NCBI GenBank assembly: GCA_964016885.1
Contig: OZ024757.1
Location: forward strand, 31,248,001 to 31,312,000
Length of the DNA: 64,000 nt
Direction of reading: 5' to 3'
Origin: Eledone cirrhosa
Taxonomy: Eukaryota
The notes under the pieces are model-generated. The model saw only the letters and a list, made by a program, of their open reading frames with translations. It did no database searches and was not told the DNA's origin. Within the stretch, counting starts at the first letter, position 1. Each line of letters starts with the position of its first letter. The position numbers and the translations under genes are program-made. Below, in pieces: positions 9,121-63,818 of the stretch.

Positions 9121-9181
9121 AACAGTTCGGATCTAACTGTTGAAACGGTCGGAGCTCAGCTGTCGGGGTCCTGACTCTTTT

Positions 9182-9185
<4 letters not shown>
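9121..9185. mobile_element. Family A fragment (one arm plus central stem)
   Basis: AACAGTT-loop-AACTGTT GAAACGGTCGGAGCTCAGCTGTCGGGGTC...TCCTA. Confidence 0.7.
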
Positions 9186-9225
<40 letters not shown>

Positions 9226-9440: not shown

Positions 9441-9496
9441 ACTGCTATATATATTTCGATGATAGCCATTGAATGACTATGACCTCATCAGGCAGT
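9441..9496 (-). ncRNA. Minimal type I hammerhead ribozyme motif (lineage H1)
   Basis: Minus strand ACTGC CTGATGA [~11-bp stem II] GAAA TATATA TA GCAGT; stem I ACTGC/GCAGT. Confidence 0.75.
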
Positions 9497-10085: not shown

Positions 10086-10360
10086 TGGGACTGGCTTTGT
10101 GCAGTGCCTTTGCTCACTATAAAAGCTTCACAGCACAGGCATTGCTTTATATCTGGAGATCTCTCTGCACTTGTCGTCACGTGTTACCATGGGCCCAGCA
10201 CTATGTGTCAATAATTGTCACAAGTGTAGGGTTTGTACAAGAGTTTTCAAGTCGCTGGCTGGACTAAAAAGTCACACTCGTTCAGCGCATCGGTAGGGGT
10301 TCTCCTACACGGATATAAAGTAGTGGCCGTACTCGAAAACGAGTTGGCAGCCACCATGTA
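10086..10360 (+). mobile_element. Family R retroposon 3' part with (ATGT)n-like tail
   Basis: ~270 bp highly similar to the reverse complement of 63388-63660; ends GCAGCCACCATGTA. Confidence 0.75.
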
Positions 10361-10801: not shown

Positions 10802-11545
10802 CATACATACATATACGTGATGGTGATATTGGCGATGACGTTGACCATAACTACGATGATGGCGATGATGGTGATGATAACGATGATGATGATGATAACG
10901 ATGATAATGGTGATAATGATGGTTATGATAATGGTTATTGTTATGATGATAACTTCAAGTGATGCCCCTATTATATAATTAAGGTGGAATGTTCACCTTG
11001 AAAAGGCTCTTCTAGGCAACCAGCCAACCAGCCTACCAGCCTGTCAGACCCACGAGGAAGAAAACCTACACACACACTCTCTCTCTCTCTCTCCTCTCTA
11101 CCTCTCTCTCCCCTGTCAGACTCACGAGGAAGAACGCAATCTAGTCCCCTTCTCTCCCTCCCTCTCACACCCTCCCCCTCCCCTATCTCTCTCTCTCCCT
11201 CTAACACCCTCCCCCTCCCCTCATCTCCCTCCCTCTCCACGCACACACCCCTCTCTCTCTCTCTACGACTTTCTCTCTATCGCTCTGTTATTCAATAAAC
11301 CAACAAACCAGCCGACCAGCCTGTCAGAGCCACGAGGAAGAAAACCTAACACCCCCCTTCTTCCTGCCCCTCCTTTCCTTCCCCCCTCTTTCCCCCACCC
11401 CACCCTCTTTATCCCCCCTTTCCTCTTCCCACCACCCTCCCCTCTTTCCCCCTCCGTTTCCTCTTCCCACCTCCCTCCCCTCTTTCCCCCTCTCTCTATC
11501 CTTCTTCAGTTTCTCATTCGTTATTCTATTCACCAAAATACTTCA

Positions 11546-12387
11546 AATATCCCCCCTCTATCTCTCCACTACAATATCCCCCCTCTATCTCTCCACTACA
11601 ATATCCCTCCCCCTATATCTCCACTATAATACCCCCCCCCCCATATCTCTCCACTACAATATCCCCACTATAATACCCCCCCTATATCTTCACTACAATA
11701 TCCCCCTCTATCTTTCCACTAGAATATCCCCCCCTATATCTCTCCACTACAATATCCCCACTATAATACCCCCTCTATCTCTCCACTACAATATCCCCCC
11801 TCTATCTCTCCACTACAATATCCCCCCTCTCTATCTCCACTACAATATCCCCCCTCTCTATCTCCACTACAATATCCCCCCTCTATCTCTCCACTACAAT
11901 ATCCCCCTCTATCTCTCCACTACAATATCCCCCCTCTATCTCTCCACTACAATATCCCCCCTCTCTATCTCCACTACAATATCCCCCTCTATCTCTCCAC
12001 TACAATATCATCCCTCTCTATCTCCACTACAATATCCCCCTCTATCTCTCCACTACAATATCCCCCTCTATCTCTCCACTACAATATCCCCCTCTATCTC
12101 TCCACTACAATATCCCCCTCTATCTCTCCACTACAATATCCCCCTCTATCTCTCCACTACAATATCCCCCTCTATCTCTCCACTACAATATCCCCCTCTA
12201 TCTCTCCACTACAATATCCCCCTCTATCTCTCCACTACAATATCCCCCCTCCTATATCTCTCCACTACAATATCCCCCTCTATCTCTCCACTACAATATC
12301 CCCCCCTCTATCTCTCCACTACAATATCCCCCCTCTCTATCTCTCCACTACAATATCCCCCCCCCCCTCTGTCTCTCCACTACAATC
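11546..12387. repeat. Minisatellite, ~23-26 bp unit CTCTATCTCTCCACTACAATATCCCC
   Basis: About 30-35 tandem units with variable C-run. Confidence 0.95.
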
Positions 12388-15161: not shown

Positions 15162-15163
<2 letters not shown>

Positions 15164-15339
15164 GGAACCAGTAAGACCCCGACAGCTGAGCTCAAGCCGT
15201 TTCGACGGCTAATTCGTCGAAACGGCTTGAGCTCAGCTGTCGGGGTCCTACTCGTTCCTATTACCCACTCTACTACCTCAAGTATTGAGTACTTTGGTGC
15301 GTTATGGTCCACCTGGTTCCTTACCACATTTCCTTCGTT
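15162..15339 (+). mobile_element. Family A copy 3
   Basis: Long hairpin plus tail, in (TA)n. Confidence 0.85.
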
Positions 15340-15480
15340 ATATATATATACATATACAGTGAGAGATAGTGAGGGATATATATAATGAAATACCAATGAC
15401 CGTTGGCAAATCACTGATGAGGGACTCATTTTATAACATGTTATCCATGTGAAACCATGCAGTATTCTTCTCCCCATATT

Positions 15481-15525
<45 letters not shown>

Positions 15526-16361
15526 CCTCACTATCTCTCTCTGTCTCTATATATACATATACATCCCCCCACTCTCTCTCCTCTCTTTCATCCTATTTAT
15601 AAACTCTCTTTTTCACCTTCAGTTCCCGTCTATTTATAGTAACGGCCAACTTCTAGTACCATGGTGATGGAGGATGGTATTACTGGTGATATATATATAT
15701 ACATGTGTGTGTGTATGTGTATGTATGTATGTATGTGTGTGTGTGTGGATAGATAGATATATATATACATGTGTGTGTGTATGTGGATATATATATATAT
15801 ACATGTGTGTGTATGTATGTATGTGCGTGTGGATATATATATATATATATACATGTGTGTGTGTGTGTGTGGATATATATATATACATGTGTGTGTATGT
15901 ATGTATGTGCGTGTGGATATATATATATATATATATATACATGTGTGTGTGTGTGTGTGTGGATATATATATATACATGTGTGTGTATGTATGTATGTGC
16001 GTGTGGATATATATATATATATATACATGTGTGTGTGTGTGTGTGGATATATATATATATATATATACATGTGTGTGTGTGAGGATATATATATATAAAT
16101 ATATATATATATATGTATAAAACTTCCCTCCTCCATTTTCTCCAGAACAATTTTTCAACTTTTCATACACTATCCTTACAATCTGCTGTCTACATATCAC
16201 TTTCAACGCTTGACCGGCTCCACCCACTCCCTCAGTGTTCTACAGGCAAGTTCAGCCACCCCTAACACCCACCAAATGCCATGATAGACTTATTTGTGTT
16301 TTCAACAAATTTTGACCAATCCTCTCGACAACTACAATCTTCCCATATAAGGATGTACCCA

Positions 16362-16533
16362 TTGACAAGTTCGGCTATTTATTCACCAGGCTAAAAATTC
16401 TAATTTAGTCCAGAAATAGCCGTCGAAACGGCTTGAGCTCTGCTGTCGGGGTCATCCTTTTTCCTATTACCGACTCTACTGAATACTCTGGTGCATTATG
16501 GTCCATCTGGTTCCTTACCACAATTCCTTCGTT
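16362..16533 (+). mobile_element. Family A copy lacking the inverted arm (possible ancestral, unfolded form)
   Basis: TTGACAA GTT CGGCTATTT...AAATAGCCG TC GAAACGGCTTGAGCTC, then family A tail. Confidence 0.65.
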
Positions 16534-17104
16534 ATATGTATATATATACATATATATATATGAATATATATATATATGAATATATATATGTATATATATG
16601 TATATGAATATATATATGTATATGAATATATATATGTATATGAATATGTATATGAATATATATATATGTATATGAATATATATATATATATATGAATACT
16701 ATACTCTTTCACTGGAATTTAGACATCAACTCGGTAGTTGTATGCATCTCTGCATGCATGCGCGCGTGTGGATGTGTAATTTTGAGTTAGATGTGTGCAT
16801 GTACATATGTTTTGTATCTGTACATGTGTACATGCAGTTATTACATGAATGTATGTATGCATATATATATGTGTGTGTATGTATGCATATATATATATGT
16901 GTGTGTGTATATATACATGTATTTATATATATATGAGAGAGAGAGAAGTTGGAAATAGCATGGAAAATATATTTTAGGGTCTTTTTTCTCTTTTTTCCTT
17001 TCTTTGATTCGTCAAAGTGACATTGAAAAAATGAGAGGGACAATTCTTTTAAAAAGGAGTTTTATAAAGTATATAAAATATATAAAGTATATAAAGTATA
17101 TAAA

Positions 17105-18611: not shown

Positions 18612-18647
18612 CCTTAACATTTCGGACGTTAGTCTCTCATCAGAAGG
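18612..18647 (-). ncRNA. Minimal HHR motif (H2)
   Basis: CCTT CTGATGA GAGAC TAAC GTCC GAAA TG TT AAGG. Confidence 0.65.
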
Positions 18648-21551: not shown

Positions 21552-21724
21552 AAGCAGTAGAAGGTCGCACGCTATGCTTTGTAGCACAGTTATGTCCCTT
21601 TACGGACTGAGTTCAAATCCCGCCGAGGTTAACTTTGCCTTTCATCCTTACGTAGTCGATAAAATAAAGTACCAGTAATACACTGGGATAATTGCTGGCC
21701 TTGTGCCAAAAAGTAGTAACAATT
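21552..21724 (+). mobile_element. SINE S1
   Basis: GAGTTCAAATCCCGCCGAGGTTAACTTTGCCTTTCATCC...GTGCCAAAAGTAG. Confidence 0.85.
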
Positions 21725-21744: not shown

Positions 21745-22163
21745 TGAAAAAATAAGGCCGGATTTCAAATATATTTTTAATGTTACAGAATCATGATACA
21801 TATTTCCATAGCTAACAAGCCCAAGTCATCAGACCATGGCGCACGGCATATGGCGACGTCTTCAGGTGTTATTCGCATAAAAAGATAAAGTAATCAGTTA
21901 CTGGATTACAGCAAAACATAAACAAAGAATTGATATGGAGGCAGACTTTCAATTATTGCTCCCCCAGTGACAGGTCGCAATTACCGCCTCCGTGTTAATT
22001 CTTTGTTTATGTTTTGTTGTAATCTTTTTATGTGAGTAATACCTGAAGATGTCGCCATATGTCTTACGTCATAACTTGATGAGGTGGGCCTGTCTGCCAT
22101 AGAAATACGTATCGAGATTTTGTAACATTAAAAGAATATTTGTAATACAGCCTTGTTTTTTCA
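21745..22163. mobile_element. Long diverged inverted repeat with an outward-facing HHR-like motif in each arm
   Basis: Arms 21745-21942 and 21986-22163; minus CTGATGA..GAAA TATG TA at 21791-21838; plus TTGATGA..GAAA TACGTA TC at 22076-22113. Confidence 0.7.
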
Positions 22164-22221: not shown

Positions 22222-22225
<4 letters not shown>

Positions 22226-22414
22226 AAAAGAGTCAAGACCCCGACGGCTGAGCTCCGGCCGTTCCGACAGCTGGATCCAAACTAGCTGTCGAAACGGCGG
22301 AGCTCAGCCGTCGGGGTCTTGACTCTTTTCCTATTACCCACTCTACTACCCTAAGTATCGAATACTCTGGTGCTTTATGGTCCTCCTGGTTCCTTACCAC
22401 ACTTTCTTTGCTTT
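22222..22414 (+). mobile_element. Family A copy 5
   Basis: GGAAAAGAGTCAAGACCCC...GGGGTCTTGACTCTTTTCC plus tail, in (TA)n. Confidence 0.85.
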
Positions 22415-23864: not shown

Positions 23865-23900
23865 TTTTCTGATGAAGTACTACCGTCCGAAACGTTAAGA
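23865..23900 (+). ncRNA. Minimal HHR motif (H2)
   Basis: TTTT CTGATGA AGTAC TACC GTCC GAAA CG TT AAGA; palindromic AACGTT. Confidence 0.6.
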
Positions 23901-24181: not shown

Positions 24182-24246
24182 TATTTTATCTGATGAAAGC
24201 TCACCAAAACTGCCTTGGTTGCCCTTGAAATATATATAATAAAATA
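24182..24246 (+). ncRNA. Minimal HHR motif (lineage H3)
   Basis: TATTTTAT CTGATGA AAG..ACCAA-loop-TTGGT..CTT GAAA TATATA TA ATAAAATA; perfect 8-bp stem I. Confidence 0.75.
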
Positions 24247-24472: not shown

Positions 24473-24536
<64 letters not shown>

Positions 24537-24580
24537 GAAATAAACCAAAGAAGCCTTCAATACATCAAAAGTCTTTATTA

Positions 24581-24618
24581 GCCAACAATGTTTCGTCATA
24601 TTAAGGACTCATCAGGGC
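24581..24618 (-). ncRNA. Minimal HHR motif (H4, left arm)
   Basis: GCC CTGATGA GTC CTTAATAT GAC GAAA CATTG TT GGC; GUU triplet. Confidence 0.75.
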
Positions 24619-24797
24619 AAGTAAAGCTATAAGAAGCACTATCGGCCAATAGAAGCCATGTAATATGGTTCAAAATGTTATTCACTTCCTTAGCAATTTT
24701 TACTTGATAATTTTCCTATGCTTTAATGTATGTATACTCCATATTCTTCTGAGGTTTTGGCTTGTATTGGCCGATAGGGCTTCTTATAGCTTTACTT

Positions 24798-24835
24798 GCC
24801 CTGATGAGTCCTTAATAGGACGAAACATTGTGGGC
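24798..24835 (+). ncRNA. Minimal HHR motif (H4, right arm)
   Basis: GCC CTGATGA GTCC TTAATA GGAC GAAA CATTG TG GGC; triplet is GUG (non-NUH). Confidence 0.7.
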
Positions 24836-24983
24836 TAATAAAGACTTTTGATGTATTGAAGGCTTCTTTGGTTTATTTCTTAATTCTTCGGCTCTGTTTA
24901 ATTACATTGAGCTATACCTTTACTCTCATTTCTATAATATGAAGAGGGTGTTTAACTCCAACACACTCTAGTATTTTAATTCT

Positions 24984-27219: not shown

Positions 27220-27221
<2 letters not shown>

Positions 27222-27409
27222 CGAAGGTAATGTGGTAAGGAACCAGGTGGACCATAACGCACCAAAGTACTCAATACTTAGGGTAGTAGAGTGGGTAATA
27301 GGAACAAGTAAGACCCCGACGGCTGAGCTCAAGCCGTTTCGACGGCTAATTCTGTACTCAAATTAGCCGTCGAAACGGCTTGAGCTCAGCCGTCGGGGTC
27401 TTACTTGTT

Positions 27410-27414
<5 letters not shown>
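27220..27414 (-). mobile_element. Family A copy 6 (perfect 54-bp arms, 9-nt loop)
   Basis: 27298-27351 is the exact reverse complement of 27361-27414; tail on the left; (TA)n on both sides. Confidence 0.9.
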
Positions 27415-27651: not shown

Positions 27652-27673
27652 GTATATATGAATGTATATATGC

Positions 27674-27712
<39 letters not shown>

Positions 27713-27727
27713 TATATATATATATAT

Positions 27728-29122
27728 TTCAAAAAGGGAAACAAATCCCTTGCCGTGAATTACCGTCCAATCTCACTCACCTCTCATATCATTAAGGTAT
27801 TTGAGAGAGTGGTGAGATCGCGAATGACCCACTTCCTTGAGAGTAACAATATGCTGAACTCCAACCAGCATGGATTCCGTAATGGAAGGGATTGCCTGAC
27901 GCAGCTACTGCATCACTTTGATGACATTTTGAGAGCCTTGGGAGAGGGTTCCAACACTGATGTTATCTACCTTGATTTCAGCAAGGCCTTTGACAGGGTT
28001 GATCATAACATTCTAATGAGAAAGCTGTCCAATATTGGTGTCACTGGAAAGCTACTGCAGTGGATCAAGAGCTTCCTGTCAAATAGAACCCAACATGTTG
28101 TAGTTGAAGGAGTCAAATCCAGCCCAGCCAAAGTCAGTAGTGGGGTCCCACAAGGCACTGTGTTGGGCCCACTTCTCTTCATCATCTATATTAATGACAT
28201 CACTGACATCATCAAACACAGCAACATTAAAATTTTCGCTGATGATTCCAAGCTCCAAAAGGTCATCAATGGCGTGGATGACCGGATAAGCCTTCAGTCA
28301 GACCTACTGGCTGTTACCCAATGGGCGGAAAAGAACAACATGTTACTGAACGAAGACAAATTCGAACTGATCCACTTTGGAAAAGAGGATGTTCTGAAAC
28401 TCCCGTACTCCCTTCCCTCCGGGGAAACTCTCGTGGCATCTAACAACATCAGAGACTTGGGAGTAACCGTGGACAGCAACATAAGCTGGGCCACGCATAT
28501 AAGCAGCAAAGTTGACATGGCCCGCAGAATGTGTTCCTGGATCCTCAGAACCTTCCAGTCGAGAGATTCCCACACCATTATCCTTCTCTTCTCTACTTTT
28601 ACCCGACCACACCTTGAATACTGTTGTCCACTGTGGTCTCCCCACACGAAACAAAGTATCATGAAACTTGAAGCTCCTCAAAGGGCAATCACGAAAAAGA
28701 TAGATGGCATGTCAGACCTTGACTACTGGGGTCGACTAGAAAACCTGAAACTTTACTCACTCCAACGTCGCCGTGAGCGTTATATTATCTGCATGATGTG
28801 GAAAATGTTCCATCATCACTGCCCAAATGATGTTGGCATCGCCTTCAAGATACACCCAAGGCTTGGGCCCCGTGCTATCCGTCCCATTCAAAAATCTAAA
28901 TCGCAACTCATAACAACAATACGGCACAATTATTTCACCTCAATCGGCCCTGCTCTCTTCAAAATCACACCAGGACACGTCAAAACAGAAACTGACCACA
29001 CAAAATTCAAGAAGTCTTTGGACAAATTCCTCCATGTAATCCCGGACAAACCACCCACACCCGGATATGTCTCCGCAAACAGTAATTCTCTTCTCGAATG
29101 GGCCATGGTGCCCAAATCCTGA
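27728..29122 (+). CDS. Reverse transcriptase of a 5'-truncated CR1-group non-LTR retrotransposon (no start codon)
   Basis: Uninterrupted ~464 codons: [66 protein letters not shown]. Confidence 0.93.
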
Positions 29123-29680: not shown

Positions 29681-29681
<1 letters not shown>

Positions 29682-29868
29682 CGAGGGAAAAGTGGTAAGG
29701 AACCAGGTGGACCATAAAGCACCAAAGTACTCAATACTTAGGGTAGTAGAGTGGGTAATAGGAGTAAGTAAGACCCCGACGGCTGAGCTCAAGCCGTTTT
29801 GACGGCTAATTCTGTACTGAATTAGCCGTCGAAACGGCTTGAGCTCAGCCGTCGGGGTCTTACTTACT

Positions 29869-29872
<4 letters not shown>
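29681..29872 (-). mobile_element. Family A copy 7
   Basis: Near-perfect hairpin GGAGTAAGTAAG.../...CTTACTTACTCC plus tail. Confidence 0.9.
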
Positions 29873-30531: not shown

Positions 30532-30591
30532 TTCGTTATATATATTTCAGGGATATCATATTAACAATATGTTATGCCATCTTCAGACAAA
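30532..30591 (-). ncRNA. Minimal HHR motif (H3-like)
   Basis: TTTGT CTGAAGA [imperfect long stem II] GAAA TATATA TA ACGAA. Confidence 0.6.
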
Positions 30592-31119: not shown

Positions 31120-31340
31120 ATGGTGGATTGGCAATATCGGCAGAGGGTCGGACGCCATGTTTTGTGGTATAGAGTTACGGCCCTTTATGATCTGAGTTCA
31201 AATCCTGCCGAGGTTAACTTTGCCTTTCATCCTTACGAGATCGATAAACTAAAGTACCAGTCACGCACTGGGGTCGATTTAATTGACTTTCCCCTCCCCC
31301 AATTTTGCTGATCTTGTGCCTATATAAGAAGACATTATTA
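31120..31340 (+). mobile_element. SINE S1, full length
   Basis: GTGGATTGGCAATATCGG..GAGTTCAAATCC head, core and tail. Confidence 0.85.
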
Positions 31341-31688
31341 AATAACTGATTTTGAAAAGTCCCAGGAACGTGATGAAACGTTCGTAAATCAGCATATAAT
31401 GTATTAATTGTATTTGTCTATTTTGTAGGTGTCTGTTTTAATGAATAATTTGCTTCTAGTGTAATTGTTATTTTTAGCACGATAGAATTTTGTGTACATG
31501 CCTTTCTGGAAAATTCTTTCAAAGGAGTATTATGCATAGCCTTTTATATTGCTTGTATAATAAATTAGTCTATTTTGAGCTGTGTTTAACTTCTCCACCT
31601 ATCTTTAGAACTTGTTTATATTGTTTTTGTAAAAAACGATATTTATTTCCTGTAGAAGCCATTTCTATATTAAACATATAGAAATGGC

Positions 31689-31737
<49 letters not shown>

Positions 31738-32241: not shown

Positions 32242-32760
32242 TAATTGTTTCTACTTTAGGCACAAGGCCAGCAATTACCCAGTGCATTACTGGTACTTTA
32301 TTTTATCGACCCCGTCAGGATGAAAGGCAAAGTCAACCTCGGCGGGATTTGAACTCAGATCGTAAAGGGACGTAACTATGTTAGAAAGCATGGCGTCTGA
32401 CTCTCTACCAATACTGCCAATATTATTATTATTATTATGGTGTGGATTGGCAATATCGGTAGAGGGTCGGACGCCATGCTTTGACGCATAGAGTTACGGC
32501 CCTTGCCATTCTGAGTTCAAATCCCACCGAGGTTAACTTTGCCTTTCATTCTTACGGGGTCGATAAAATAAAGTACCAGTAATGCACTGGGTAATTGCTG
32601 GCCTTGTGCCAAAAGTAGAAACAATTATTATTATTATTCCTTACAAATCCCACCGAGGTTAACTTTGCCTTTCATCCTTACGGGGTCGATAAAATAAAGT
32701 ACCAGTAATGCACTGGGGTAATTGCTGGCCTTGTGCCTAACGTAGAAACAATTATTACTA
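32242..32760. mobile_element. Head-to-head SINE S1 pair (minus 32242-32421, plus 32440-32638) and an extra 3' half
   Basis: Reverse-complement match across a short (ATT)n spacer. Confidence 0.85.
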
Positions 32761-34183: not shown

Positions 34184-34377
34184 TAGGAAAAAGTATGACC
34201 CCGACGGCAGAGCTCAAGCCGTTTCGATGGCTATTTCTGGTCCAGAATTAGCCATCGAAACGGCTAGAGCTCTGCCGTCGGGGTCATACGTTTTCCTATT
34301 ACCCACTCTACTACCCCAAGTATTGAGTACTCTGGTGCGTTATGGTCCATCTGGTTCATTACCACAACTCCTTCGTT
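34184..34377 (+). mobile_element. Family A copy 8
   Basis: Hairpin plus tail, in (TATC)n. Confidence 0.85.
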
Positions 34378-34966: not shown

Positions 34967-35249
34967 GGCACAAAGAGAGCTACACATATAAGCAGAAACA
35001 CACACACATATGTGTGTCATTCGCTCCCTCTCTCCCTCTCTCTCTCTCTATATATATATATATAGAGAGAGAGAGAGTGAAAGAGAAAAGAACGCGACAT
35101 ACACATACACACATATATACACACATATGTATGTATATATATATATGTGTGTGTATGGGAATAATAACAAAAGTCGGTGAAAAGGAAAATGATTTCTGGT
35201 CCGTTTGGAACCTGTAGCTTTTAAACCAACTCATTATATATTCACGTTG

Positions 35250-35440
35250 GGCGGTGGATTGGCAGTATCGGTAAGGGTCGGACGCCATGCTTTGAAGCAT
35301 AGAGTTACCTCCCTTTATGATCTGAGTTCAAATCCCGCCGAGGTTAACTTTGCCTTTCATCCTTACGGGGTCGATAAAATAAAGTACCAGTAATGCACTG
35401 GAATAATTGCTGGCCTTGTGCCAAAAGTAGAAACAATTAT
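35250..35440 (+). mobile_element. SINE S1, full length
   Basis: As the other S1 copies. Confidence 0.88.
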
Positions 35441-35800: not shown

Positions 35801-35971
35801 AACGCACGGACCATAACGCACCAGAGTACTCAATACTTAGGGTAGTAGAGTGGGTAATAGGAAAATGTTTGAATCCGACAGCAGAGCTCAAGCCGTTTCG
35901 ACGGCTATTTCTGGACAAAAATAGCCGTCGAAACGGCTTGAGCTCTGCCGTCGGGGTCAAACATTTTCCTA
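35801..35971 (-). mobile_element. Family A copy 9 (tail partly deleted)
   Basis: GGAAAATGTTTGA...TCAAACATTTTCC hairpin. Confidence 0.85.
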
Positions 35972-36074: not shown

Positions 36075-36283
36075 ATTGGCAGTATTGGTAGAGGGTCGGA
36101 CGCCATGCTTTGACGTATGGAGTTACGGCCCTTGCCATTCTGAGTTCAAATCCCGCCAAGGTTAATTTTGCCTTTCATCCTTACGGGGTCGATAAAATAA
36201 AGTACCAGTAATGCACTGGTACTTTATTTTATCGACCCCGTTGGCCTTGTGCCTAACGTAGAAATAATAATTATTATTATTAT
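36075..36283 (+). mobile_element. SINE S1 with internal 26-bp perfect fold-back (36184-36240)
   Basis: CGGGGTCGATAAAATAAAGTACCAGT AATGC ACTGGTACTTTATTTTATCGACCCCG. Confidence 0.85.
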
Positions 36284-36370: not shown

Positions 36371-36546
36371 TATCCCGGGTTCAATCGGAGGTACCCACAG
36401 TAAGTAAGGTACTCAATACATAGCAGAGTATAAATGTTTAATATAGAAATGGCTTCTACAGGACTTGAACTGTTTCATTCGAAGGAAACCATCAGGAAAA
36501 CCTTCGAATGAAACAGTACTAGTCCTGTAGAAGCCATTTCTATATT
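36371..36546 (-). mobile_element. Hairpin-plus-tail family B (relative of family A)
   Basis: Arms 36440-36485 and 36501-36546 with GTTTC..GAAAC core; tail shares ACTCTGCTA and GTATTGAGTAC with family A; arm fragments at 31649-31693 and 50944-50964. Confidence 0.75.
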
Positions 36547-36622: not shown

Positions 36623-36640
36623 TTTATTAAAATATCAGAA

Positions 36641-36822
36641 GGGTGGTGGATTGGCAGTATGGGTAGAGGGTCGGACGCCATGCTTTCCAGCATAGTTACG
36701 TCCCTTTACGATCTGAGTTCAAATCCCACCGAGGTTTACTTTGCTTACGGGGTCGATAAAATAAAGTACCAGTAATGCACTGGGTAATTGCTGCCCTTGT
36801 GCCTAAAGTAGAAACAATTATT
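36641..36822 (+). mobile_element. SINE S1
   Basis: As the other S1 copies. Confidence 0.85.
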
Positions 36823-36866
36823 AAAATAACAGATTAAAGTTTAGTCTTCAAATTTATTATTATTAC

Positions 36867-38686: not shown

Positions 38687-41600
38687 GGTGGACAGAGGGA
38701 CAGACTGGCTGGTGGACAGAAGGACTGACAGACTGACAGACAGACAGAACGACTGGCTGGTAGACATACTGACAGACAGATAGAACGACTGGCTGGTAGA
38801 CAGACTGACAGAACGACTGGCTGGTAGACAGACTGACAGACAGACGGAACGACTGGCTGGTGGACAGACTGACAGAACGACTGGCTGGTAGACATACTGA
38901 CAGACAGACAGAACGACTGGCTGGTGGACAGACTGACAGAACGACTGGCTGGTAGACATACTGACAGACAGATAGAACGACTGGCTGGTAGACAGACTGA
39001 CAGACAGACGGAACGACTGGCTGGTAGACAGACAGAACGACTGGCTGGTAGACAGACTGACAGACAGACAGAACGACTGGCTGGTAGACAGACTGACAGA
39101 CAGACGGAACGACTGGCTGGTAGACAGACAGAACGACTGGCTGGTAGACAGACTGACAGACAGACAGAACGACTGGCTGGTAGACAGACAGAACGACTGG
39201 CTGGTACACAGACTGACAGACAGACGGAACGACTGGCTGGTGGACAGACAGACGGAACGACTGGCTGGTGGACAGACAGGCAGAACGACTGGCTGGTAGA
39301 CATACTGACAGACTGACAGAACGACTGGCTGGTGGACAGACAGGCAGAACGACTGGCTGGTAGACAGACTGACAGACAGACGGAACGACTGGCTGGTAGA
39401 CAGACAGAACGACTGGCTGGTAGACAGACAGAACGACTGGCTGGTAGACAGACTGACAGACAGACAGAACGACTGGCTGGTAGACAGACTGACAGACAGA
39501 CGGAACGACTGGCTGGTGGACAGACAGGCAGAACGACTGGCTGGTAGACATACTGACAGACTGACAGAACGACTGGCTGGTAGACATACTGACAGACAGA
39601 CAGAACGACTGGCTGGTGGACAGACTGACAGAACGACTGGCTGGTAGACATACTGACAGACAGATAGAACGACTGGCTGGTAGACAGACTGACAGACAGA
39701 CGGAACGACTGGCTGGTAGACAGACAGAACGACTGGCTGGTAGACAGACTGACAGACAGACAGAACGATTGGCTGGTAGACAGACTGACAGACAGACGGA
39801 ACGACTGGCTGGTAGACAGACAGAACGACTGGCTGGTAGACAGACTGACAGACAGATAGAACGACTGGCTGGTAGACAGACTGAACGACTGGCTGGTAGA
39901 CAGACTGACAGACAGACAGAACGACTGGCTGTTAGACAGACTGACAGACAGACGGAACGACTGGCTGGTAGACAGACAGAACGACTGGCTGGTAGACAGA
40001 CTGACAGACAGATAGAACGACTGGCTGGTAGACAGACTGACAGACAGACAGAACGACTGGCTGGTAGACAGACAGAACGACTGGCTGGTAGACAGACTGA
40101 CAGACAGACAGAACGACTGGCTGGTAGACAGACTGACAGACAGACGGAACGACTGGCTGGTGGACAGACAGGCAGAACGACTGGCTGGTAGACATACTGA
40201 CAGAACGACTGGCTGGTGGACAGACAGGCAGAACGACTGGCTGGTAGACATACTGACAGACAGACAGAACGACTGGCTGGTGGACAGACTGACAGAACGA
40301 CTGGCTGGTAGACATACTGACAGACAGATAGAACGACTGGCTGGTAGACAGACTGACAGACAGACGGAACGACTGGCTGGTAGACAGACAGAACGACTGG
40401 CTGGTAGACAGACTGACAGACAGACAGAACGACTGGCTGGTAGACAGACTGACAGACAGACGGAACGACTGGCTGGTAGACAGACAGAACGACTGGCTGG
40501 TAGACAGACTGACAGACAGATAGAACGACTGGCTGGTAGACAGACTGACAGACAGACAGAACGACTGGCTGGTAGACAGACAGAACGACTGGCTGGTAGA
40601 CAGACTGACAGACAGACAGAACGACTGGCTGGTAGACAGACTGACAGACAGACGGAACGACTGGCTGGTAGACAGACAGAACGACTGGCTGGTAGACAGA
40701 CTGACAGACAGAACGACTGGCTGGTAGACAGACTGACAGACAGACGGAACGACTGGCTGGTAGACAGACTGACAGACAGATAGAACGACTGGCTGGTAGA
40801 CATACTGACAGACAGATAGAACGACTGGCTGGTAGACAGACTGACAGAACGACTGGCTGGTAGACAAACTGACAGACAGATAGAACGACTGGCTAGTAGA
40901 CAGACTGACAGACAGACAGAACGACTGGCTGGTAGACAGACAGAACGACTGGCTGGTAGACATACTGACAGACAGATAGAACGACTGGCTGGTAGACAGA
41001 CTGACAGACAGACGGAACGACTGGCTGGTAGACAGACAGAACAACTGGCTGGTAGACAGACTGACAGACAGACAGAACGACTGGCTGGTAGACAGACTGA
41101 CAGACAGACGGAACGACTGGCTGGTAGACAGACAGAACGACTGGCTGGTAGACAGACTGACAGACAGACGGAACGACTGGCTGGTGGACAGACAGGCAGA
41201 ACGACTGGCTGGTAGACAGACTGACAGACAGACGGAACGACTGGCTGGTGGACAGACAGAACGACTGGCTGGTAGACAGACTGACAGACAGACGGAACGA
41301 CTGGCTGGTAGACAGACAGAACGACTGGCTGGTAGACAGACTGACAGACAGACGGAACGACTGGCTGGTGGACAGACAGGCAGAACGACTGGCTGGTAGA
41401 CATACTGACAGAACGACTGGCTGGTGGACAGACAGGCAGAACGACTGGCTGGTAGACATACTGACAGACAGACGGAACGACTGGCTGGTAGACAGACAGA
41501 ACGACTGGCTGGTAGACAGACTGACAGACAGACGGAACGACTGGCTGGTGGACAGACAGGCAGAACGACTGGCTGGTAGACATACTGACAGACAGACGGA

Positions 41601-43595
41601 ACGACTGGCTGGTAGACAGACAGAACGACTGGCTGGTAGACAGACTGACAGACAGACGGAACGACTGGCTGGTGGACAGACAGGCAGAACGACTGGCTGG
41701 TAGACATACTGACAGACAGACGGAACGACTGGCTGGTAGACAGACAGAACGACTGGCTGGTAGACAGACTGACAGACAGACGGAACGACTGGCTGGTGGA
41801 CAGACAGGCAGAACGACTGGCTGGTAGACAGACTGACAGACAGACGGAACGACTGGCTGGTGGACAGACAGAACGACTGGCTGGTAGACAGACTGACAGA
41901 CAGACGGAACGACTGGCTGGTGGACAGACAGGCAGAACGACTGGCTGGTAGACATACTGACAGACAGACGGAACGACTGGCTGGTAGACAGACAGAACGA
42001 CTGGCTGGTAGACAGACTGACAGACAGACGGAACGACTGGCTGGTGGACAGACAGGCAGAACGACTGGCTGGTAGACATACTGACAGACAGACGGAACGA
42101 CTGGCTGGTAGACAGACAGAACGACTGGCTGGTAGACAGACTGACAGACAGACGGAACGACTGGCTGGTGGACAGACAGGCAGAACGACTGGCTGGTAGA
42201 CATACTGACAGACAGACGGAACGACTGGCTGGTAGACAGACAGAACGACTGGCTGGTAGACAGACTGACAGACAGACGGAACGACTGGCTGGTGGACAGA
42301 CAGGCAGAACGACTGGCTGGTAGACATACTGACAGAACGACTGGCTGGTGGACAGACAGGCAGAACGACTGGCTGGTAGACAGACTGACAGACAGACGGA
42401 ACGACTGGCTGGTGGACAGACAGGCAGAACGACTGGCTGGTAGACATACTGACAGAACGACTGGCTGGTGGACAGACTGACAGAACGACTGGCTGGTAGA
42501 CATACTGACAGACAGACAGAACGACTGGCTGGTGGACAGACTGACAGAACGACTGGCTGGTAGACATACTGACAGACAGATAGAACGACTGGCTGGTAGA
42601 CAGACTGACAGACAGACGGAACGACTGGCTGGTAGACAGACAGAACGACTGGCTGGTAGACAGACTGACAGACAGACAGAACGACTGGCTGGTAGACATA
42701 CTGACAGACAGACGGAACGACTGGCTGGTGGACAGACTGACAGAACGACTGGCTGGTAGACATACTGACAGACAGACGGAACGACTGGCTGGTAGACAGA
42801 CAGAACGACTGGCTGGTAGACAGACTGACAGACAGGCAGAACGACTGGCTGGTAGACATACTGACAGACAGACGGAACGACTGGCTGGTGGACAGACTGA
42901 CAGAACGACTGGCTGGTAGACATACTGACAGACAGACGGAACGACTGGCTGGTAGACAGACAGAACGACTGGCTGGTAGACAGACTGACAGACAGGCAGA
43001 ACGACTGGCTGGTAGACATACTGACAGACAGACGGAACGACTGGCTGGTGGACAGACTGACAGAACGACTGGCTGGTAGACATACTGACAGACAGACAGA
43101 ACGACTGGCTGGTGGACAGACTGACAGAACGACTGGCTGGTAGACATACTGACAGACAGACGGAACGACTGGCTGGTAGACAGACTGACAGACAGACGGA
43201 ACGACTGGCTGGTAGACAGACAGAACGACTGGCTGGTAGACAGACTGACAGACAGACAGAACGACTGGCTGGTAGACAGACTGACAGACAGACGGAACGA
43301 CTGGCTGGTAGACAGACAGAACGACTGGCTGGTAGACAGACTGACAGACAGACAGAACGACTGGCTGGTAGACAGACTGACAGACAGACGGAACGACTGG
43401 CTGGTAGACAGACAGAACGACTGGCTGGTAGACATACTGACAGACAGATAGAACGACTGGCTGGTAGACAGACTGACAGAACGACTGGCTGGTAGACAGA
43501 CGGAACGACTGGCTGGTAGACAGACTGACAGAACGACTGGCTGGTAGACAGACTGACAGACAGACGGAACGACTGGCTGGTAGACAGACTGACAG
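38687..43595. repeat. 4.9-kb modular satellite: GAACGACTGGCTGGT(A/G) plus a variable number of GACA/GACT/TACT/GGCA tetramers (24-36 bp units)
   Basis: Highly homogeneous tandem units; source of the 1695, 1250 and 708 aa artefact ORFs. Confidence 0.97.
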
Positions 43596-43610
43596 TATAT
43601 ATATATATAC

Positions 43611-43735
43611 CGAATGAAGTGTGGTAAGGAACCAGGTGGACCATAACGCACCAGAGTACTCGATACTTTGGGTAGTAGAGACATTGCTGTCGAAACGGCT
43701 TGAACTCTGCCGTCGGGGTTCTGACTCTTTTGCTA
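43611..43735 (-). mobile_element. Family A copy 10 (one arm deleted)
   Basis: Tail GTGGTAAGGAACCAGGTGGACCATAACG joined to GTCGAAACGGCTTGAACTC. Confidence 0.8.
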
Positions 43736-43932: not shown

Positions 43933-43968
43933 TCTTAACGTTTCGCATGCTAGTCCGTCATCAGAAGA
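43933..43968 (-). ncRNA. Minimal HHR motif (H2; stem II damaged)
   Basis: TCTT CTGATGA CGGACTAGCATGC GAAA CG TT AAGA. Confidence 0.55.
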
Positions 43969-45059: not shown

Positions 45060-47525
45060 ATCGAACTTAAATTTGACAGATTGATTGGTTATAGCTCCAA
45101 ATGTTTTTATTTACGACCTTTTTACATTCTGAATTCAAACCCTGCCGACGTCAACTTTGCCTTTCTTCTGAGGACGATAAAATAAAGTACCAGTCATGTA
45201 CTTGGGTCGATTTAGCCAACTTTATACCTTCCCCCATATTTGCAGGCCTTATACCTAAATCAGAAACCAGTATGAGTTCCAACATAAAGGGTTTGGGGCA
45301 GAATTGGTAGGGATAGGTCAGATAAAATACAGTTGAAGTCCGAGTACTTGTTCTCTTGCCTTTTACATTCTGAGTTCAAATCCCGTCGAGGTCAACTTTA
45401 CCTTTCATCTTTCAAGGGACGGGGTTCGATAAAATAAAGTACCAGTCACATACTGGGGTTGGTTTAACGTACTTTATACCCCTCTTCCATATTTGCTGGC
45501 CTTATGCCTTAATCAGAAATAAATATAAAGGGATTGGGGCAGAATTGGTGAGGGTAGGTCTGATAAAATGCCATTGAAGTACGATTATTTTTTATTTTGC
45601 TCTTTACATTCTGAGTTCAAATGCCTTTCATCTTTCGGGGAGGTGAGGCGTCGATAAAATAAAGTACCAGTCATGTAGTGGGTCGATTTAACGAACTTTA
45701 TACCTTTCTTCCATATTTGCTGGCCTTATGCCTAAATCAGAAATCAACATAAATGGGACGGGGTTCTATAAAATAAAATACCAGTCACATACTGAGGTGG
45801 GTTTAACGTACTTTATACCTTTCCTCAACATTTGTTGGCCTTATGCCTAAATCAGGAATAAATATAAAGGAATTGGGGCAGAATTGGTGGGATGTGGTAG
45901 ATCAGATAAAATACAATTGAAGTATGATTATTTTTTCTCTTGTTCTCTACTTTCTGAGTTCAAATCCTGTCGAGGTCAACTTTGCTTTTCTTCTTTGAAG
46001 GGACAGGTGTTCTTTAAAATAAAGTACCAGTCACATACTGAGGTGGGTTTAACGTACTTTATACCTTTCTTCTACATTTGCTGGCCTTATGCCTAAATCA
46101 GGAATAAATATAAAGGAATTGGAGCAGAATTGGTGCGATGGGGTAGATCAGATAAAATACAATTGAAGTACAATTATTTTTTCTTTTGCTCTCTACGTTC
46201 TGAGTACAAATCTTACCGAGGTTAACTTTGCCTTTCATCTTTCAGGAAGGTGAAGTGTCGATAAAATAAAGAACCTGTCGTGTACTGGAGTCGATTTAAT
46301 CAACTTTATATCTTTCCTTCACATTTGCTGGCCTTATGCCTTATCCAGAATTCAGTATAAATGGTTTGGAGCAGAATTGGTAAGGGTAGGTCAGATAATA
46401 TACAATTGAAGTACGATTATTTTTTTCTCTTGCTTTCTACATTCTGAGTTCAAATCCTGTCGAGGTCGACTTTGTCTTTCGTCTTTGAAGGGACGGTGTT
46501 TGATTAAATAAAATAATAGTCACATACTGGGGTTGGTTTAACGTACTTTATACCCCTCTTCCATATTTGCTGGCCTTATGCCTAAATCAGAAATAAATAT
46601 AAATGGTTTAAGGCAGAATTGGTGGGATGGGTAGGTCAGATAATATACAATTGAAGTACGATTATTTTTTTCTTTTGCTCTCTACATTCTGAGTACAAAT
46701 CTCGCAGAGGTTAACTATGCATTTCATCTTTCAGGAAGGTGAAGTTTCGATAAAATAAAGTACCAGTTATGTAGTGGGGGTCGATTTAACCGACTTTATA
46801 TCTTTCCTGCATATTTGCTGGCCTAATGCCTACATCAGAATTAGTGGTGGTGGTATGGGTAGGTCAGATAATATACAATTGAAGTACGATTATTTTTTCT
46901 TTTGCTCTCTACATTCTGAGTACAAATCTCGCAGAGGTTAACTATGCATTTCATCTTTCAGGAAGGTGAAGTTTCGATAAAATAAAGTACCAGTTATGTA
47001 GTGGGGTCGATTTAACCAACTTTATATCTTTCCTGCATATTTGCTGGCCTTATGCCTACATCAGAATTAGTGGTGGTGGTAAGGGTAGGTCAGATAATAT
47101 ACAATTGAAGTACGATTATTTTTTTCTTTTGCTCTCTGAATACAAATCTCACCGTGGTCAACTTTGCTTTTCGTCTTTGAAGGGACGGGTGTTCTTTAAA
47201 ATAAAGTACCAGTCACATTCTGAGGGTGGGTTTAATCAACTTTATACCTTTCCTCTACATTTGTTGGCCTTATGCCTTAATCAGAATTGGTGCGATGAGG
47301 CAGGTCAGATAAAATACAATTGAAGTACAATTATTTTTTCTTTTGCTCTCTACATTCTGAGTACAAATCCTGTCGAGGTCATCTTTGAAGGGACGGAGGG
47401 GTGGGGTTCTATAAAATAAAGTACCAGTCACGTACTGGGGTCCATGCAAATGAATTCTCCCCCCCCCCCCCACAAAAAAAATCAACAAAATTCCTGACCT
47501 TGTTCTTAAAATAGAAACCATTATT
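45060..47525 (+). repeat. Tandem array of about 11 diverged SINE S1-related monomers (mostly ~220-250 bp)
   Basis: Repeated ACATTCTGAGTTCAAATC..GAGGTCAACTTTGCC..ATAAAGTACCAGTC..GCTGGCCTTATGCCTAAATCAG. Confidence 0.9.
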
Positions 47526-48068: not shown

Positions 48069-48123
48069 ACTGCCTGAAGAGGTCACAGCCAAAGATGGCT
48101 GTCACTGAAATATATATAGCAGT
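48069..48123 (+). ncRNA. Minimal HHR motif (H1)
   Basis: ACTGC CTGAAGA GGTCACAGCCA AAGA TGGCTGTCACT GAAA TATATA TA GCAGT; stem II covaries with 9441-9496. Confidence 0.78.
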
Positions 48124-51977: not shown

Positions 51978-52164
51978 GGGCGGTGGATTGGCAGTATCAG
52001 TAGAGGGTCGGACGCCATGCTTTCCAGCATAGTTACGTCCCTTTACGGTCTGAGTTCAAATCCCGCCGAGGTTGACTTTGCCTTTCATCCTTACAGGGTC
52101 GATAAAATAAAGTACCAGTAATGCACTGGGTAATTGCTGGCCTTGTGCCTAAAGTAGAAACAAT

Positions 52165-57708: not shown

Positions 57709-57712
<4 letters not shown>

Positions 57713-57822
57713 GTTTTTACTTTTGGCACAAGGCCAGCAATTACCTAGTGTAACAGTGCATTACTGGTACTTTATTTTATCGACCCCGTAAGGATGAAAC
57801 GCAAAGTTAACCTCGGCGGGAT
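57709..57822 (-). mobile_element. SINE S1 3' half
   Basis: Reverse complement of the S1 core and tail. Confidence 0.8.
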
Positions 57823-60116: not shown

Positions 60117-60258
60117 TAGTTCGCATCTAGCTGCCGAAACGGTCGGAGCTCAGTCGCTGGGGTCCTGACTCTTTTCCTATTACCCACTCTTCTACCCCAA
60201 ATATCAAGTACTCTGGTGTGTTATGGTCCACCTCGTTTCTTACCTCACTTTCTTTGTC
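60117..60258 (+). mobile_element. Family A copy 11 (single arm plus tail)
   Basis: GAAACGGTCGGAGCTCAG...TACCCACTCT...CTTACCTCAC. Confidence 0.8.

Positions 60259-63251: not shown

Positions 63252-63818
<567 letters not shown>

What the first reader, a model, noticed from the sequence alone, without database searches (positions are those of the whole stretch)
16362..16533. Hypothesis: family A is a hammerhead folded back at stem II; this copy may retain the unfolded ancestor
Seen: in family A the hairpin centre is a stem-loop followed immediately by GAAAC (GAAACGGTC at 9142 and 60136, a GUC-like site). Where CUGANGA should be, there is only the reverse complement GTTTC. This copy lacks the inverted arm and instead has TTGACAA-GTT-CGGCTATTT...AAATAGCCG-TC-GAAAC, preceded by ~240 bp of unique sequence. 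Inference: template switching or self-priming at stem II produced a catalytically dead but mobile palindromic derivative of a PLE pseudo-LTR.
Basis: inference. Interest (0 to 1): 0.7.

Follow-up and report, generated by a model that had tools for sequence, protein, structure and literature searches.

The report
Variant hammerhead split by Penelope promoter
This stretch is the end piece of a very abundant repeat, likely a Penelope-type jumping gene, and it holds a complete predicted self-cutting RNA motif with a known swapped core pair; the neighbouring DNA hairpins are likely short back-to-back copies that stop at the element's predicted RNA start inside that motif, not a ribozyme folded back on itself.

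Summary
16349-16459 has a complete type I hammerhead layout. TTGACAA is not a decayed core but the U3-A8 variant known from Schistosoma Cercyon PLEs: in four read sets U4, G5, A6 and A8 show no variant at 2% or more, while N7 takes all four bases. The predicted cut site is GUC at 16445-47, not GAAACGGTC. The 'unique' 240 bp is itself high-copy. Family A hairpins turn not at stem II but at the A of an initiator-like TTAGTC in loop II, 31 nt after a TATA-like TATTTAT; 9 of 10 other window copies begin within about 2 nt of it. Arms match within copies (permutation rank 1 of 5040). In 5 of 9 copies the tail-less arm reaches furthest 5', which simple fold-back cannot give. Best reading: twin-primed stubs copied from the 5' end of a Penelope-like RNA, a known inverted-pLTR-plus-tail product. 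No ORF, RNA or cleavage was shown, and a retrozyme parent remains possible. Earlier unreviewed notes report the same pattern on other DNA of this genome.

The parts
16118..16532 (+). 5'-truncated, non-palindromic copy of the parent element's 3' end (pLTR-like), between (TA)n tracts
16118..16348 (+). upstream part; high-copy in reads, likely non-coding (recurrent 1-nt indels; no Pfam or protein hit for the frame tested)
16349..16361 (+). hammerhead helix I 5' strand; 16357-60 pair with 16449-52; family majority C at 16361 pairs G16448; 16349-55 pair 16453-59 in this copy
16362..16368 (+). core U3 U4 G5 A6 N7 A8 A9 (U3-A8 covariant of C3-G8)
   Evidence: PMC4209133
16369..16380 (+). helix II 5' strand (G10.1, two-base internal loop, 9 Watson-Crick pairs)
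16376..16382 (+). TATA-like TATTTAT at -31 from A16407, overlapping helix II (predicted promoter)
   Evidence: 1 of 102 Inr-like sites in the window has this spacing; no variant row at 16376-83
16405..16410 (+). Inr-like TTAGTC; A16407 is the predicted RNA start and the observed 5' limit of the stubs
   Evidence: (joints, depth step)
16414..16427 (+). helix II 3' strand, C11.1 (16424) and G12 A13 A14
16428..16447 (+). helix III (5 bp, loop with palindromic GAGCTC) and C17; predicted cut between 16447 and 16448
16448..16466 (+). helix I 3' strand and the end of the short arm (16466; inferred first internal priming site)
16467..16532 (+). one-sided tail (66 nt here, 78 in copies without a 12-nt deletion); 16532 is the inferred second priming site
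   Evidence: PMC11167929
5502..5685 (+). family A two-armed stub
9124..9186 (+). family A short arm only, abutting another repeat
15162..15338 (+). family A two-armed stub
22222..22412 (+). family A two-armed stub (second subfamily)
27221..27413 (-). family A two-armed stub
29681..29872 (-). family A two-armed stub
34184..34376 (+). family A two-armed stub
35803..35971 (-). family A two-armed stub with shortened tail
43608..43735 (-). short arm joined head-to-head to the tail only, across a 7-nt microhomology; no shared arm sequence
60118..60258 (+). family A long arm only, starting at the AGT

Best explanation
The 16118-16532 copy is a truncated end piece of an abundant repeat, likely a Penelope-like retroelement, that carries a complete U3-A8 hammerhead layout predicted to self-cleave, and the family A hairpins are likely pairs of short cDNAs that ran off the element RNA's predicted start inside loop II of that hammerhead. 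Steps: (1, shown) long copies carry helix I, the U3-A8 core, helix II, GAAA, a 5-bp helix III and GUC. (2, shown) A TATA-like word at -31 and an Inr-like TTAGT lie in helix II and loop II, and stubs begin at that A. (3, inferred) Transcription starts there, so the RNA's 5' end holds only the GAAA-helix III-GUC half; the whole ribozyme would form only in the downstream pLTR copy. (4, inferred from PMC11167929) The element's endonuclease cuts both strands in (TA)n, and each DNA end primes reverse transcription at one of two internal sites, 16466 and 16532; the stretch between them is the tail. (5, inferred) One cDNA runs off the RNA start, the other stops there or earlier, and the two join head to head by microhomology, giving an inverted repeat with a one-sided tail. 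The stubs lack the core and the TATA word, so they are likely dead by-products made anew from a single-stranded template rather than a self-propagating palindrome.
For: Core conservation: (complete table, 22 rows, threshold 2%, 4 runs) there is no row at 16363, 16364, 16365 or 16367; 16366 has A 42%, G 11%, T 2.5% in X1; 16361 is C in 98% (X1) and 96% (X12), restoring the first pair of helix I. Helix III: 98.9% of 90 cells paired, against 14-80% for slid controls. Strict descriptor: 0 of 2000 shuffles. U3-A8, a long helix II and a 4-5 bp helix I are described for PLE hammerheads (PMC4209133). 5' limit: 7 of 10 other window copies start at A16407 (plus or minus 1), 2 at +2/+3, 1 at about +7, and none carries the core or the helix II 5' strand. 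8 of 11 opposite-strand joints shown have one side at 16407 or 16408 (15 of 19 joint rows shown). Raw-read depth rises from 616-712 to 11,344-11,661 across that point (X11). TATA-Inr spacing: 1 of 102 Inr-like sites in the window. Arms: mean distance 2.4 within a copy against 8.2 between copies, best of 5040 permutations, no arm-diagnostic column. In 5 of 9 copies the tail-less arm reaches furthest 5', and in the 43608 copy the two arms share no sequence. Inverted 5'-truncated copy plus one-sided tail, and (TA)n targets, are the described EN+ PLE signature (PMC8557442; PMC3846280); two internal RT starts and extension of both strands were shown in vitro (PMC11167929).
Against: No RT or GIY-YIG ORF was linked (no genome held). 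The RNA start is inferred from DNA only. For this copy the hammerhead-constrained fold (-32.4 kcal/mol) is 4.5 kcal/mol worse than the MFE (-36.9), which pairs the core with the cut site. Rfam gives no hammerhead match at E<=10. Helix III shows only one-sided changes, no compensatory pair, and equals its shuffle control. A minority has C at position 3 without G at 8 (7% X1, 26% X12, 1 of 2 contigs X7), so the 3-8 pair is not strictly kept. Only reads at least 80% alike were laid, so a diverged CUGANGA subfamily would be missed. The 5498 copy's arms are not nearest to each other (7 against 5) and 15161 ties. A mini-hairpin (16400-05 with 16414-19) makes 2-3 junctions also readable as fold-back. 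Loop inversion or deletion after insertion could mimic 'short arm reaches furthest'. The tail (66-78 nt) is longer than the 30-40 nt norm. An extra G (cap copy) is seen at best in 1 of 7 junctions.
Confidence: 0.62

Rival explanations
1. The parent is a non-coding retrozyme-like monomer with a U3-A8 hammerhead, mobilised in trans by PLE enzymes; the insertion mechanism is as in the best explanation, but there is no ORF of its own.
For: No ORF link. The upstream part looks non-coding. Retrozymes are related to PLE pLTRs (bioRxiv 10.64898/2026.07.22.740005, abstract). Unreviewed notes describe U3-A8 retrozymes elsewhere in this genome.
Against: A circular or ribozyme-cut RNA would give 5' limits at 16448 or nowhere fixed, whereas the limit is 16407, with no joint at 16447/8 among the 15 shown. 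No tandem copy occurs in the window. The hammerhead 85-97 nt from the 3' end matches the placement in Hydra-clade consensus sequences.
Confidence: 0.18
2. Self-primed fold-back, the reader's idea moved to loop II: one cDNA primed at the tail end reaches the RNA start or the small hairpin 16400-05/16414-19, folds back and copies itself to make the short arm.
For: It explains within-copy arm identity and the 4 of 9 copies in which the tailed arm reaches furthest 5'. Self-priming was proposed for PLE palindromes (PMC3846280, passages).
Against: It cannot give the 5 of 9 copies where the tail-less arm reaches further 5', nor the 43608 copy or the joints 16407-16491 and 16408-16492, without later rearrangement. 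It does not explain the fixed short-arm end at 16466.
Confidence: 0.13
3. Family A is a self-propagating palindromic non-autonomous element (MITE-like, or a dead-ribozyme derivative) that arose once by fold-back at stem II.
For: Stubs outnumber long copies in depth about 16-19-fold. Some junctions recur (16408-16412, depth 310 in 4 contigs of X1).
Against: No arm-diagnostic sites, and 24 minor states shared by both arms of the same copy. The junctions differ between copies and subfamilies and lack the loop II sequence.
Confidence: 0.05
4. The hammerhead resemblance is vestigial or accidental: the motif is conserved as a promoter or binding site and no longer cleaves.
For: The MFE competes with the active fold. 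There is a C3-A8 minority. Helix II doubles as the TATA-like box. PLE hammerheads cleave weakly or only with protein (PMC4209133; PMC11167929).
Against: Four-way variation at N7 between invariant neighbours, and a kept helix III, GUC and helix I across subfamilies.
Confidence: 0.12

Closest known systems
U3-A8 hammerheads of Schistosoma mansoni Cercyon PLEs (Cervera and De la Pena 2014, PMC4209133; parts 1-2 of 4 read)
   Same: Type I layout, U3-A8 core, long helix II, 4-5 bp helix I, G10.1-C11.1, dispersed truncated copies.
   Different: Those are minimal motifs lacking a real helix III. Here helix III has 5 bp and a 9-nt loop with a palindromic GAGCTC, so it could fold as a monomer or a dimer; loop II is 33 nt and holds the Inr-like site.
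EN+ PLE insertions with an inverted 5'-truncated copy and a one-sided tail; Hydra clade, including Hydra-1_Obim (Craig et al. 2021, PMC8557442; passages, section 11, supplement part 2 and term searches; Arkhipova et al. 2013, PMC3846280, passages)
   Same: Head-to-head arms, tail on one side, (TA)n targets, sense hammerhead about 100 nt from the 3' end.
   Different: All 34 rows of supplementary File S2 that I saw have a C3/G8-type core. The Hydra-1_Obim hammerhead is a different sequence. Two family A motifs and one 8-residue peptide gave 0 hits in that supplement (line wrapping could hide a hit). The tail is 66-78 nt rather than 30-40. Clade unassigned, as no ORF was found.
Poseidon PAc of Anolis in vitro (Frangieh et al. 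2024, PMC11167929; parts 1-2 of 4 read)
   Same: Two internal RT start sites bounding the tail, both DNA strands cut and extended, AT-rich targets, uncleaved RNA as template.
   Different: There the ORF starts at stem II and the core is C3-G8. The parts read do not describe head-to-head stubs ending at a transcription start within the ribozyme.
Metazoan non-LTR retrozymes (PMC7229834, passages; bioRxiv 10.64898/2026.07.22.740005, abstract and term search)
   Same: Non-coding type I hammerhead repeats with pLTR affinity.
   Different: Retrozymes are head-to-tail tandem monomers made from circular RNA; here no tandem was seen and the 5' limit is not the cut site.

Membership tests
Type I hammerhead ribozyme | Core 3-9 (CUGANGA or the U3-A8 covariant) plus G12 A13 A14, with N7 free | tested here: met
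   U3-A8 in the majority, with a 7-26% C3-A8 minority
Type I hammerhead ribozyme | Helices I, II and III around the core, with an A15.1-U16.1 pair and H17 | tested here: met
   this copy has a private A-G mismatch at the first pair of helix I, where the family majority has C-G
Type I hammerhead ribozyme | Compensatory base changes in the helices | tested here: inconclusive
   only one-sided changes in helix III; helices I and II could not be aligned across copies
Type I hammerhead ribozyme | Match to an Rfam hammerhead model | tested here: not met
   no hammerhead family at E<=10 on 16300-16520
Type I hammerhead ribozyme | Site-specific self-cleavage | not testable with these tools
   needs an in vitro assay
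EN+ Penelope-like element | ORF with telomerase-like RT and GIY-YIG endonuclease | tested here: inconclusive
   no hit for two short translations; no genome; no locus from pattern scans
EN+ Penelope-like element | Inverted 5'-truncated copy with a one-sided tail | tested here: met
   7 two-armed copies; tail longer than the norm
EN+ Penelope-like element | Hammerhead in the pLTR near the 3' end | tested here: met
   predicted cut 85 nt (97 without the deletion) from the 3' end; compare
EN+ Penelope-like element | Microsatellite / AT-rich targets | tested here: met
   copies abut (TA)n, or (CTAT)n for 34184; TSDs unreadable
EN+ Penelope-like element | Partial tandem / direct pLTRs flanking the ORF | not testable with these tools
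   no full-length copy available
Non-LTR retrozyme | Head-to-tail tandem monomers delimited by hammerheads | tested here: inconclusive
   none among the 11 window copies; genome not available
Non-LTR retrozyme | Monomeric linear and circular RNA | not testable with these tools
   no RNA data laid
Self-propagating palindromic element (MITE-like) | Fixed junction and arm-specific variants shared across copies | tested here: not met

The most novel reading that the evidence does not exclude
The element's core promoter is built into its ribozyme. Helix II's 5' strand is the TATA box and loop II holds the initiator, so transcription splits the hammerhead: the capped 5' end carries only the substrate half, while the enzyme half sits in the downstream pLTR. 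The two ends of one RNA could then pair through the 9-bp helix II and helix I into a two-piece U3-A8 hammerhead that clamps the RNA ends together, a way to protect the cap, time the cleavage and hand the short 'strong-stop' cDNA from the 5' end to the 3' end, which would explain how pseudo-LTRs are regenerated.
Probability: 0.15. Interest if true: 0.75.

Novelty: new variant of a known kind. Interest (0 to 1): 0.42.

Why it matters
How Penelope-like elements build their inverted ends, which RNA strand they copy, and what their hammerheads do are stated open questions (PMC3846280 discussion; PMC8557442 section 15; PMC11167929). This family gives base-level predictions for all three: an RNA start at A16407, priming ends at 16466 and 16532, and a cut at 16447/16448. 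Sense-strand copying from uncleaved RNA is predicted, since no stub seen starts at the cut site. It also shows that a highly repeated hammerhead family can be invisible to CUGANGA and Rfam searches. The parts are individually known, and similar stubs were noted for other families of this genome in unreviewed notes, so the surprise is moderate.

Tried and rejected
No genome is held for the window. Exact and degenerate family motifs found nothing in viral, metagenome (twice) and prokaryote genome collections. The look-up of sequencing runs listed 13 runs and no RNA holder; this is no evidence on expression. 7 of the 13 runs were laid. Possible ORF start at ATG 16498 (12 codons, no frameshift in 9 of the 10 tailed copies; the tenth, 35803, is cut short after two codons): no protein of 75-2000 aa shared three words with the translation of the 43608 copy, so it is not claimed. 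Upstream frame 16119-16259: 5 candidates, none at E<=1; Pfam gave only a sub-threshold DUF3791; the other upstream frames were translated but not searched. Rfam on the whole window gave 593 matches, of which 150 were shown; these were mostly microsatellite-driven miRNA matches and none was a hammerhead. An untemplated cap-derived G at junctions was looked for and not supported (at best 1 of 7). Look-ups of earlier findings by sequence and by nearby place returned nothing. Literature searches for a transcription start inside a PLE hammerhead, or twin priming by PLEs, listed no paper whose title or abstract start states it; the library lacks most subscription papers. The O. vulgaris repeat paper PMC13282606 has 0 occurrences of 'hammerhead' or 'palindrom' in its main text; its repeat library and the bioRxiv preprint's supplements were not seen and could hold this family.

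Full report
Setting. The window is repeat-rich animal DNA: 35,147 of 64,000 bases are masked as tandem repeats. I take it to be octopod from my recall of such repeat landscapes and from unreviewed earlier notes; no call names the species. No genome is held, so evidence from outside the window comes from public read sets and papers.

Family A in the window. A low-stringency search with 16100-16545 finds 11 copies: the long copy 16118-16532, seven two-armed stubs, and three partial ones. The stubs are a short arm ending at position 16466 of the long copy, joined head to head to a long arm that runs on through a tail to 16532, set in (TA)n.

The long copy holds a whole hammerhead. 16349-16459 can be drawn as type I: helix I (16357-60 with 16449-52), core 16362-68, G10.1-C11.1 plus nine Watson-Crick pairs of helix II, GAA 16425-27, a 5-bp helix III (16428-32 with 16442-46) and C17 at 16447. 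A strict descriptor written after seeing the motif hits only this site, and 0 of 2000 shuffles. The core reads U3 U4 G5 A6 C7 A8 A9, with numbering as in PMC7151607 (passage). Cervera and De la Pena describe this U3-A8 covariation in Cercyon PLEs of Schistosoma, about 1,300 hits (PMC4209133). Reads show it is the family norm, not decay. In one search (16340-16406; 427, 522, 2 and 4 records laid from X1, X12, X6, X7; all 22 variant rows shown at a 2% threshold) U4, G5, A6 and A8 have no row. N7 takes all four bases. 16361 is C in 96-98%, which restores the first pair of helix I that this copy has lost. A9 varies only in 131 reads from 4 starts of one RAD run and 0.2% of X1. Against this: position 3 is C in 7% (X1), 26% (X12) and 1 of 2 contigs (X7) without G at 8; the hammerhead fold of this copy lies 4.5 kcal/mol above its MFE; Rfam does not recognise it; helix III is 98.9% paired over 18 arms but shows no double change.

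The upstream 240 bp belongs to the repeat. In one search (13,279, 36, 7 and 20,334 records laid from X1, X4, X8, X11) it has summed contig depth 30,602-153,402 in X1 over 16174-16341, against 5-18 for the individual X1 contigs listed, and hundreds of raw reads in X11. Summed depth is not a copy number, but the region is plainly repeated. Recurrent 1-nt deletions at 16216, 16217 and 16263, and empty searches with one frame, suggest it is non-coding. The core region was laid in runs carrying five organism codes (A-E).

Where the hairpins turn. Fold-back at stem II predicts that the centre keeps the helix II 5' strand and loop II. It does not: after GGCTATTT the stubs continue with the reverse complement of the downstream arm. 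The 5'-most base reached is A16407 (plus or minus 1) in 7 of 10 copies, +2/+3 in 2 and about +7 in 1. The AGT there is kept across subfamilies whose neighbouring bases differ. In reads, depth rises about 16-19-fold across this point (X11), and 8 of the 11 opposite-strand joints shown have a side at 16407 or 16408, with none at the cut site (15 of 19 rows shown). A16407 lies in TTAGTC, an initiator-like word, and TATTTAT begins 31 nt upstream. Both consensus words and the -31/-30 spacing are recalled, not from a call. This is the only such pairing among 102 initiator-like sites in the window, and 16376-83 has no variant row although 16381-83 is unpaired in the ribozyme. TATA and Inr-like words in pLTRs are reported for rotifer PLEs (PMC3846280); Drosophila Penelope has a TATA-less internal promoter (PMC2377424, passages). 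I infer that the stubs end at the RNA's 5' end. A caveat is a small hairpin (16400-05 with 16414-19) that makes the 27221 and 29681 junctions, and perhaps 35803, also readable as fold-back in loop II.

How the stubs are made. Over 47 alignment columns, the two arms of one copy differ by 2.4 on average, against 8.2 between copies. The true pairing is the best of 5040 permutations, 24 minor states are shared by both arms of the same copy, and no column separates short from long arms; one old copy (5498) does not follow this and one ties. So each palindrome, or each small lineage, was made from one single-stranded template. Simple fold-back requires the tailed arm to reach furthest 5'. It does so in 4 of 9 copies, but the tail-less arm does in 5 of 9. 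In the 43608 copy the two arms share no sequence and meet across a 7-nt microhomology, and reads show like joints (16407-16491, 16408-16492). This fits two separately primed cDNAs. Frangieh et al. showed that a PLE enzyme cuts and extends both DNA strands and starts at two internal RNA sites that bound the genomic tail, using uncleaved RNA (PMC11167929). Later loop inversion or deletion could blur polarity, so this step stays inferred. The run-off and twin-priming reading was also offered by unreviewed notes on other DNA of this genome; I saw them in the same turn as my joint data, they shaped my wording, and I tested the idea on this family as above.

Comparison with what is known. It works like an EN+ PLE insertion: inverted 5'-truncated copy, one-sided tail, (TA)n target, sense hammerhead near the 3' end (PMC8557442). 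Membership is not proven, because the defining ORF was not reached (pattern scans 24, 25, 52, 53 empty). It is not Hydra-1_Obim by its hammerhead, and none of the 34 hammerhead rows in that paper's File S2 has U3-A8. A retrozyme parent is the main rival. Differences from described cases: U3-A8 together with a stable 5-bp helix III and a palindromic loop; a 33-nt loop II that holds the predicted start; and a 66-78-nt tail. Searches listed no paper that states a start site within a PLE hammerhead, within the limits of the library; supplements of the bioRxiv preprint and the O. vulgaris repeat library were not seen.

Verdict. A real feature and a new variant of a known kind. Interest 0.42.

Noticed in passing
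window 23869-23893 +, 43940-43964 -, 18619-18643 -, 15414-15455 +, 24190-24231 +, 30544-30586 -, 9453-9491 -, 48074-48111 +: Further CUGANGA...GAAA hammerhead-like motifs of several unrelated repeat families; likely ends of other Penelope-like elements.
   Followed up: no
window 24532-24884 and 21745-22163: Long palindromes beside (TA)n with a canonical hammerhead-like motif on each strand; 24532-24884 continues into a one-sided tail.
   Followed up: partly
window 36440-36546 and 31648-31693: Short palindrome in which only one arm carries the CUGA half and the other starts in stem II; 31648-31693 is a deleted relative.
   Followed up: partly
window 16354 and 16456: Two changes private to this copy (family majority differs in about 99% of depth) both improve pairing and extend helix I to 11 bp; template-switch repair or chance.
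   Followed up: partly
window 16362, 16366: Minority allele with C at hammerhead position 3 but no G at 8, in one X7 contig apparently together with G at position 7 (same depth value); a dead lineage or an odd core.
   Followed up: no
window 27662-29122 +: 486-aa open frame that reads like a LINE-type reverse transcriptase (family recalled as CR1/L2/Jockey-like, not searched), lying between two family A stubs.
   Followed up: no
window 21557-21724, 31121-31272, 32242-32750, 35249-35440, 36078-36268, 36640-36827, 51978-52162, 57710-57820: Abundant ~170-190-bp SINE-like family; 32242-32623 is an inverted pair; a related ~230-245-bp tandem array lies at 45108-47445.
   Followed up: no
window 10088-10355 and 63391-63658: 268-bp repeat, 95% identical, inserted in microsatellites in opposite orientations.
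   Followed up: no
window ~38700-43590: About 5 kb of GC-richer short-period satellite giving long spurious open frames; it ends just before the 43608 family A copy.
   Followed up: no
window 16498-16533: ATG-initiated 12-codon frame in the tail, without frameshift in 9 of the 10 tailed copies (the tenth is cut short after two codons) and with a synonymous family polymorphism at 16506; no protein relative found.
   Followed up: yes
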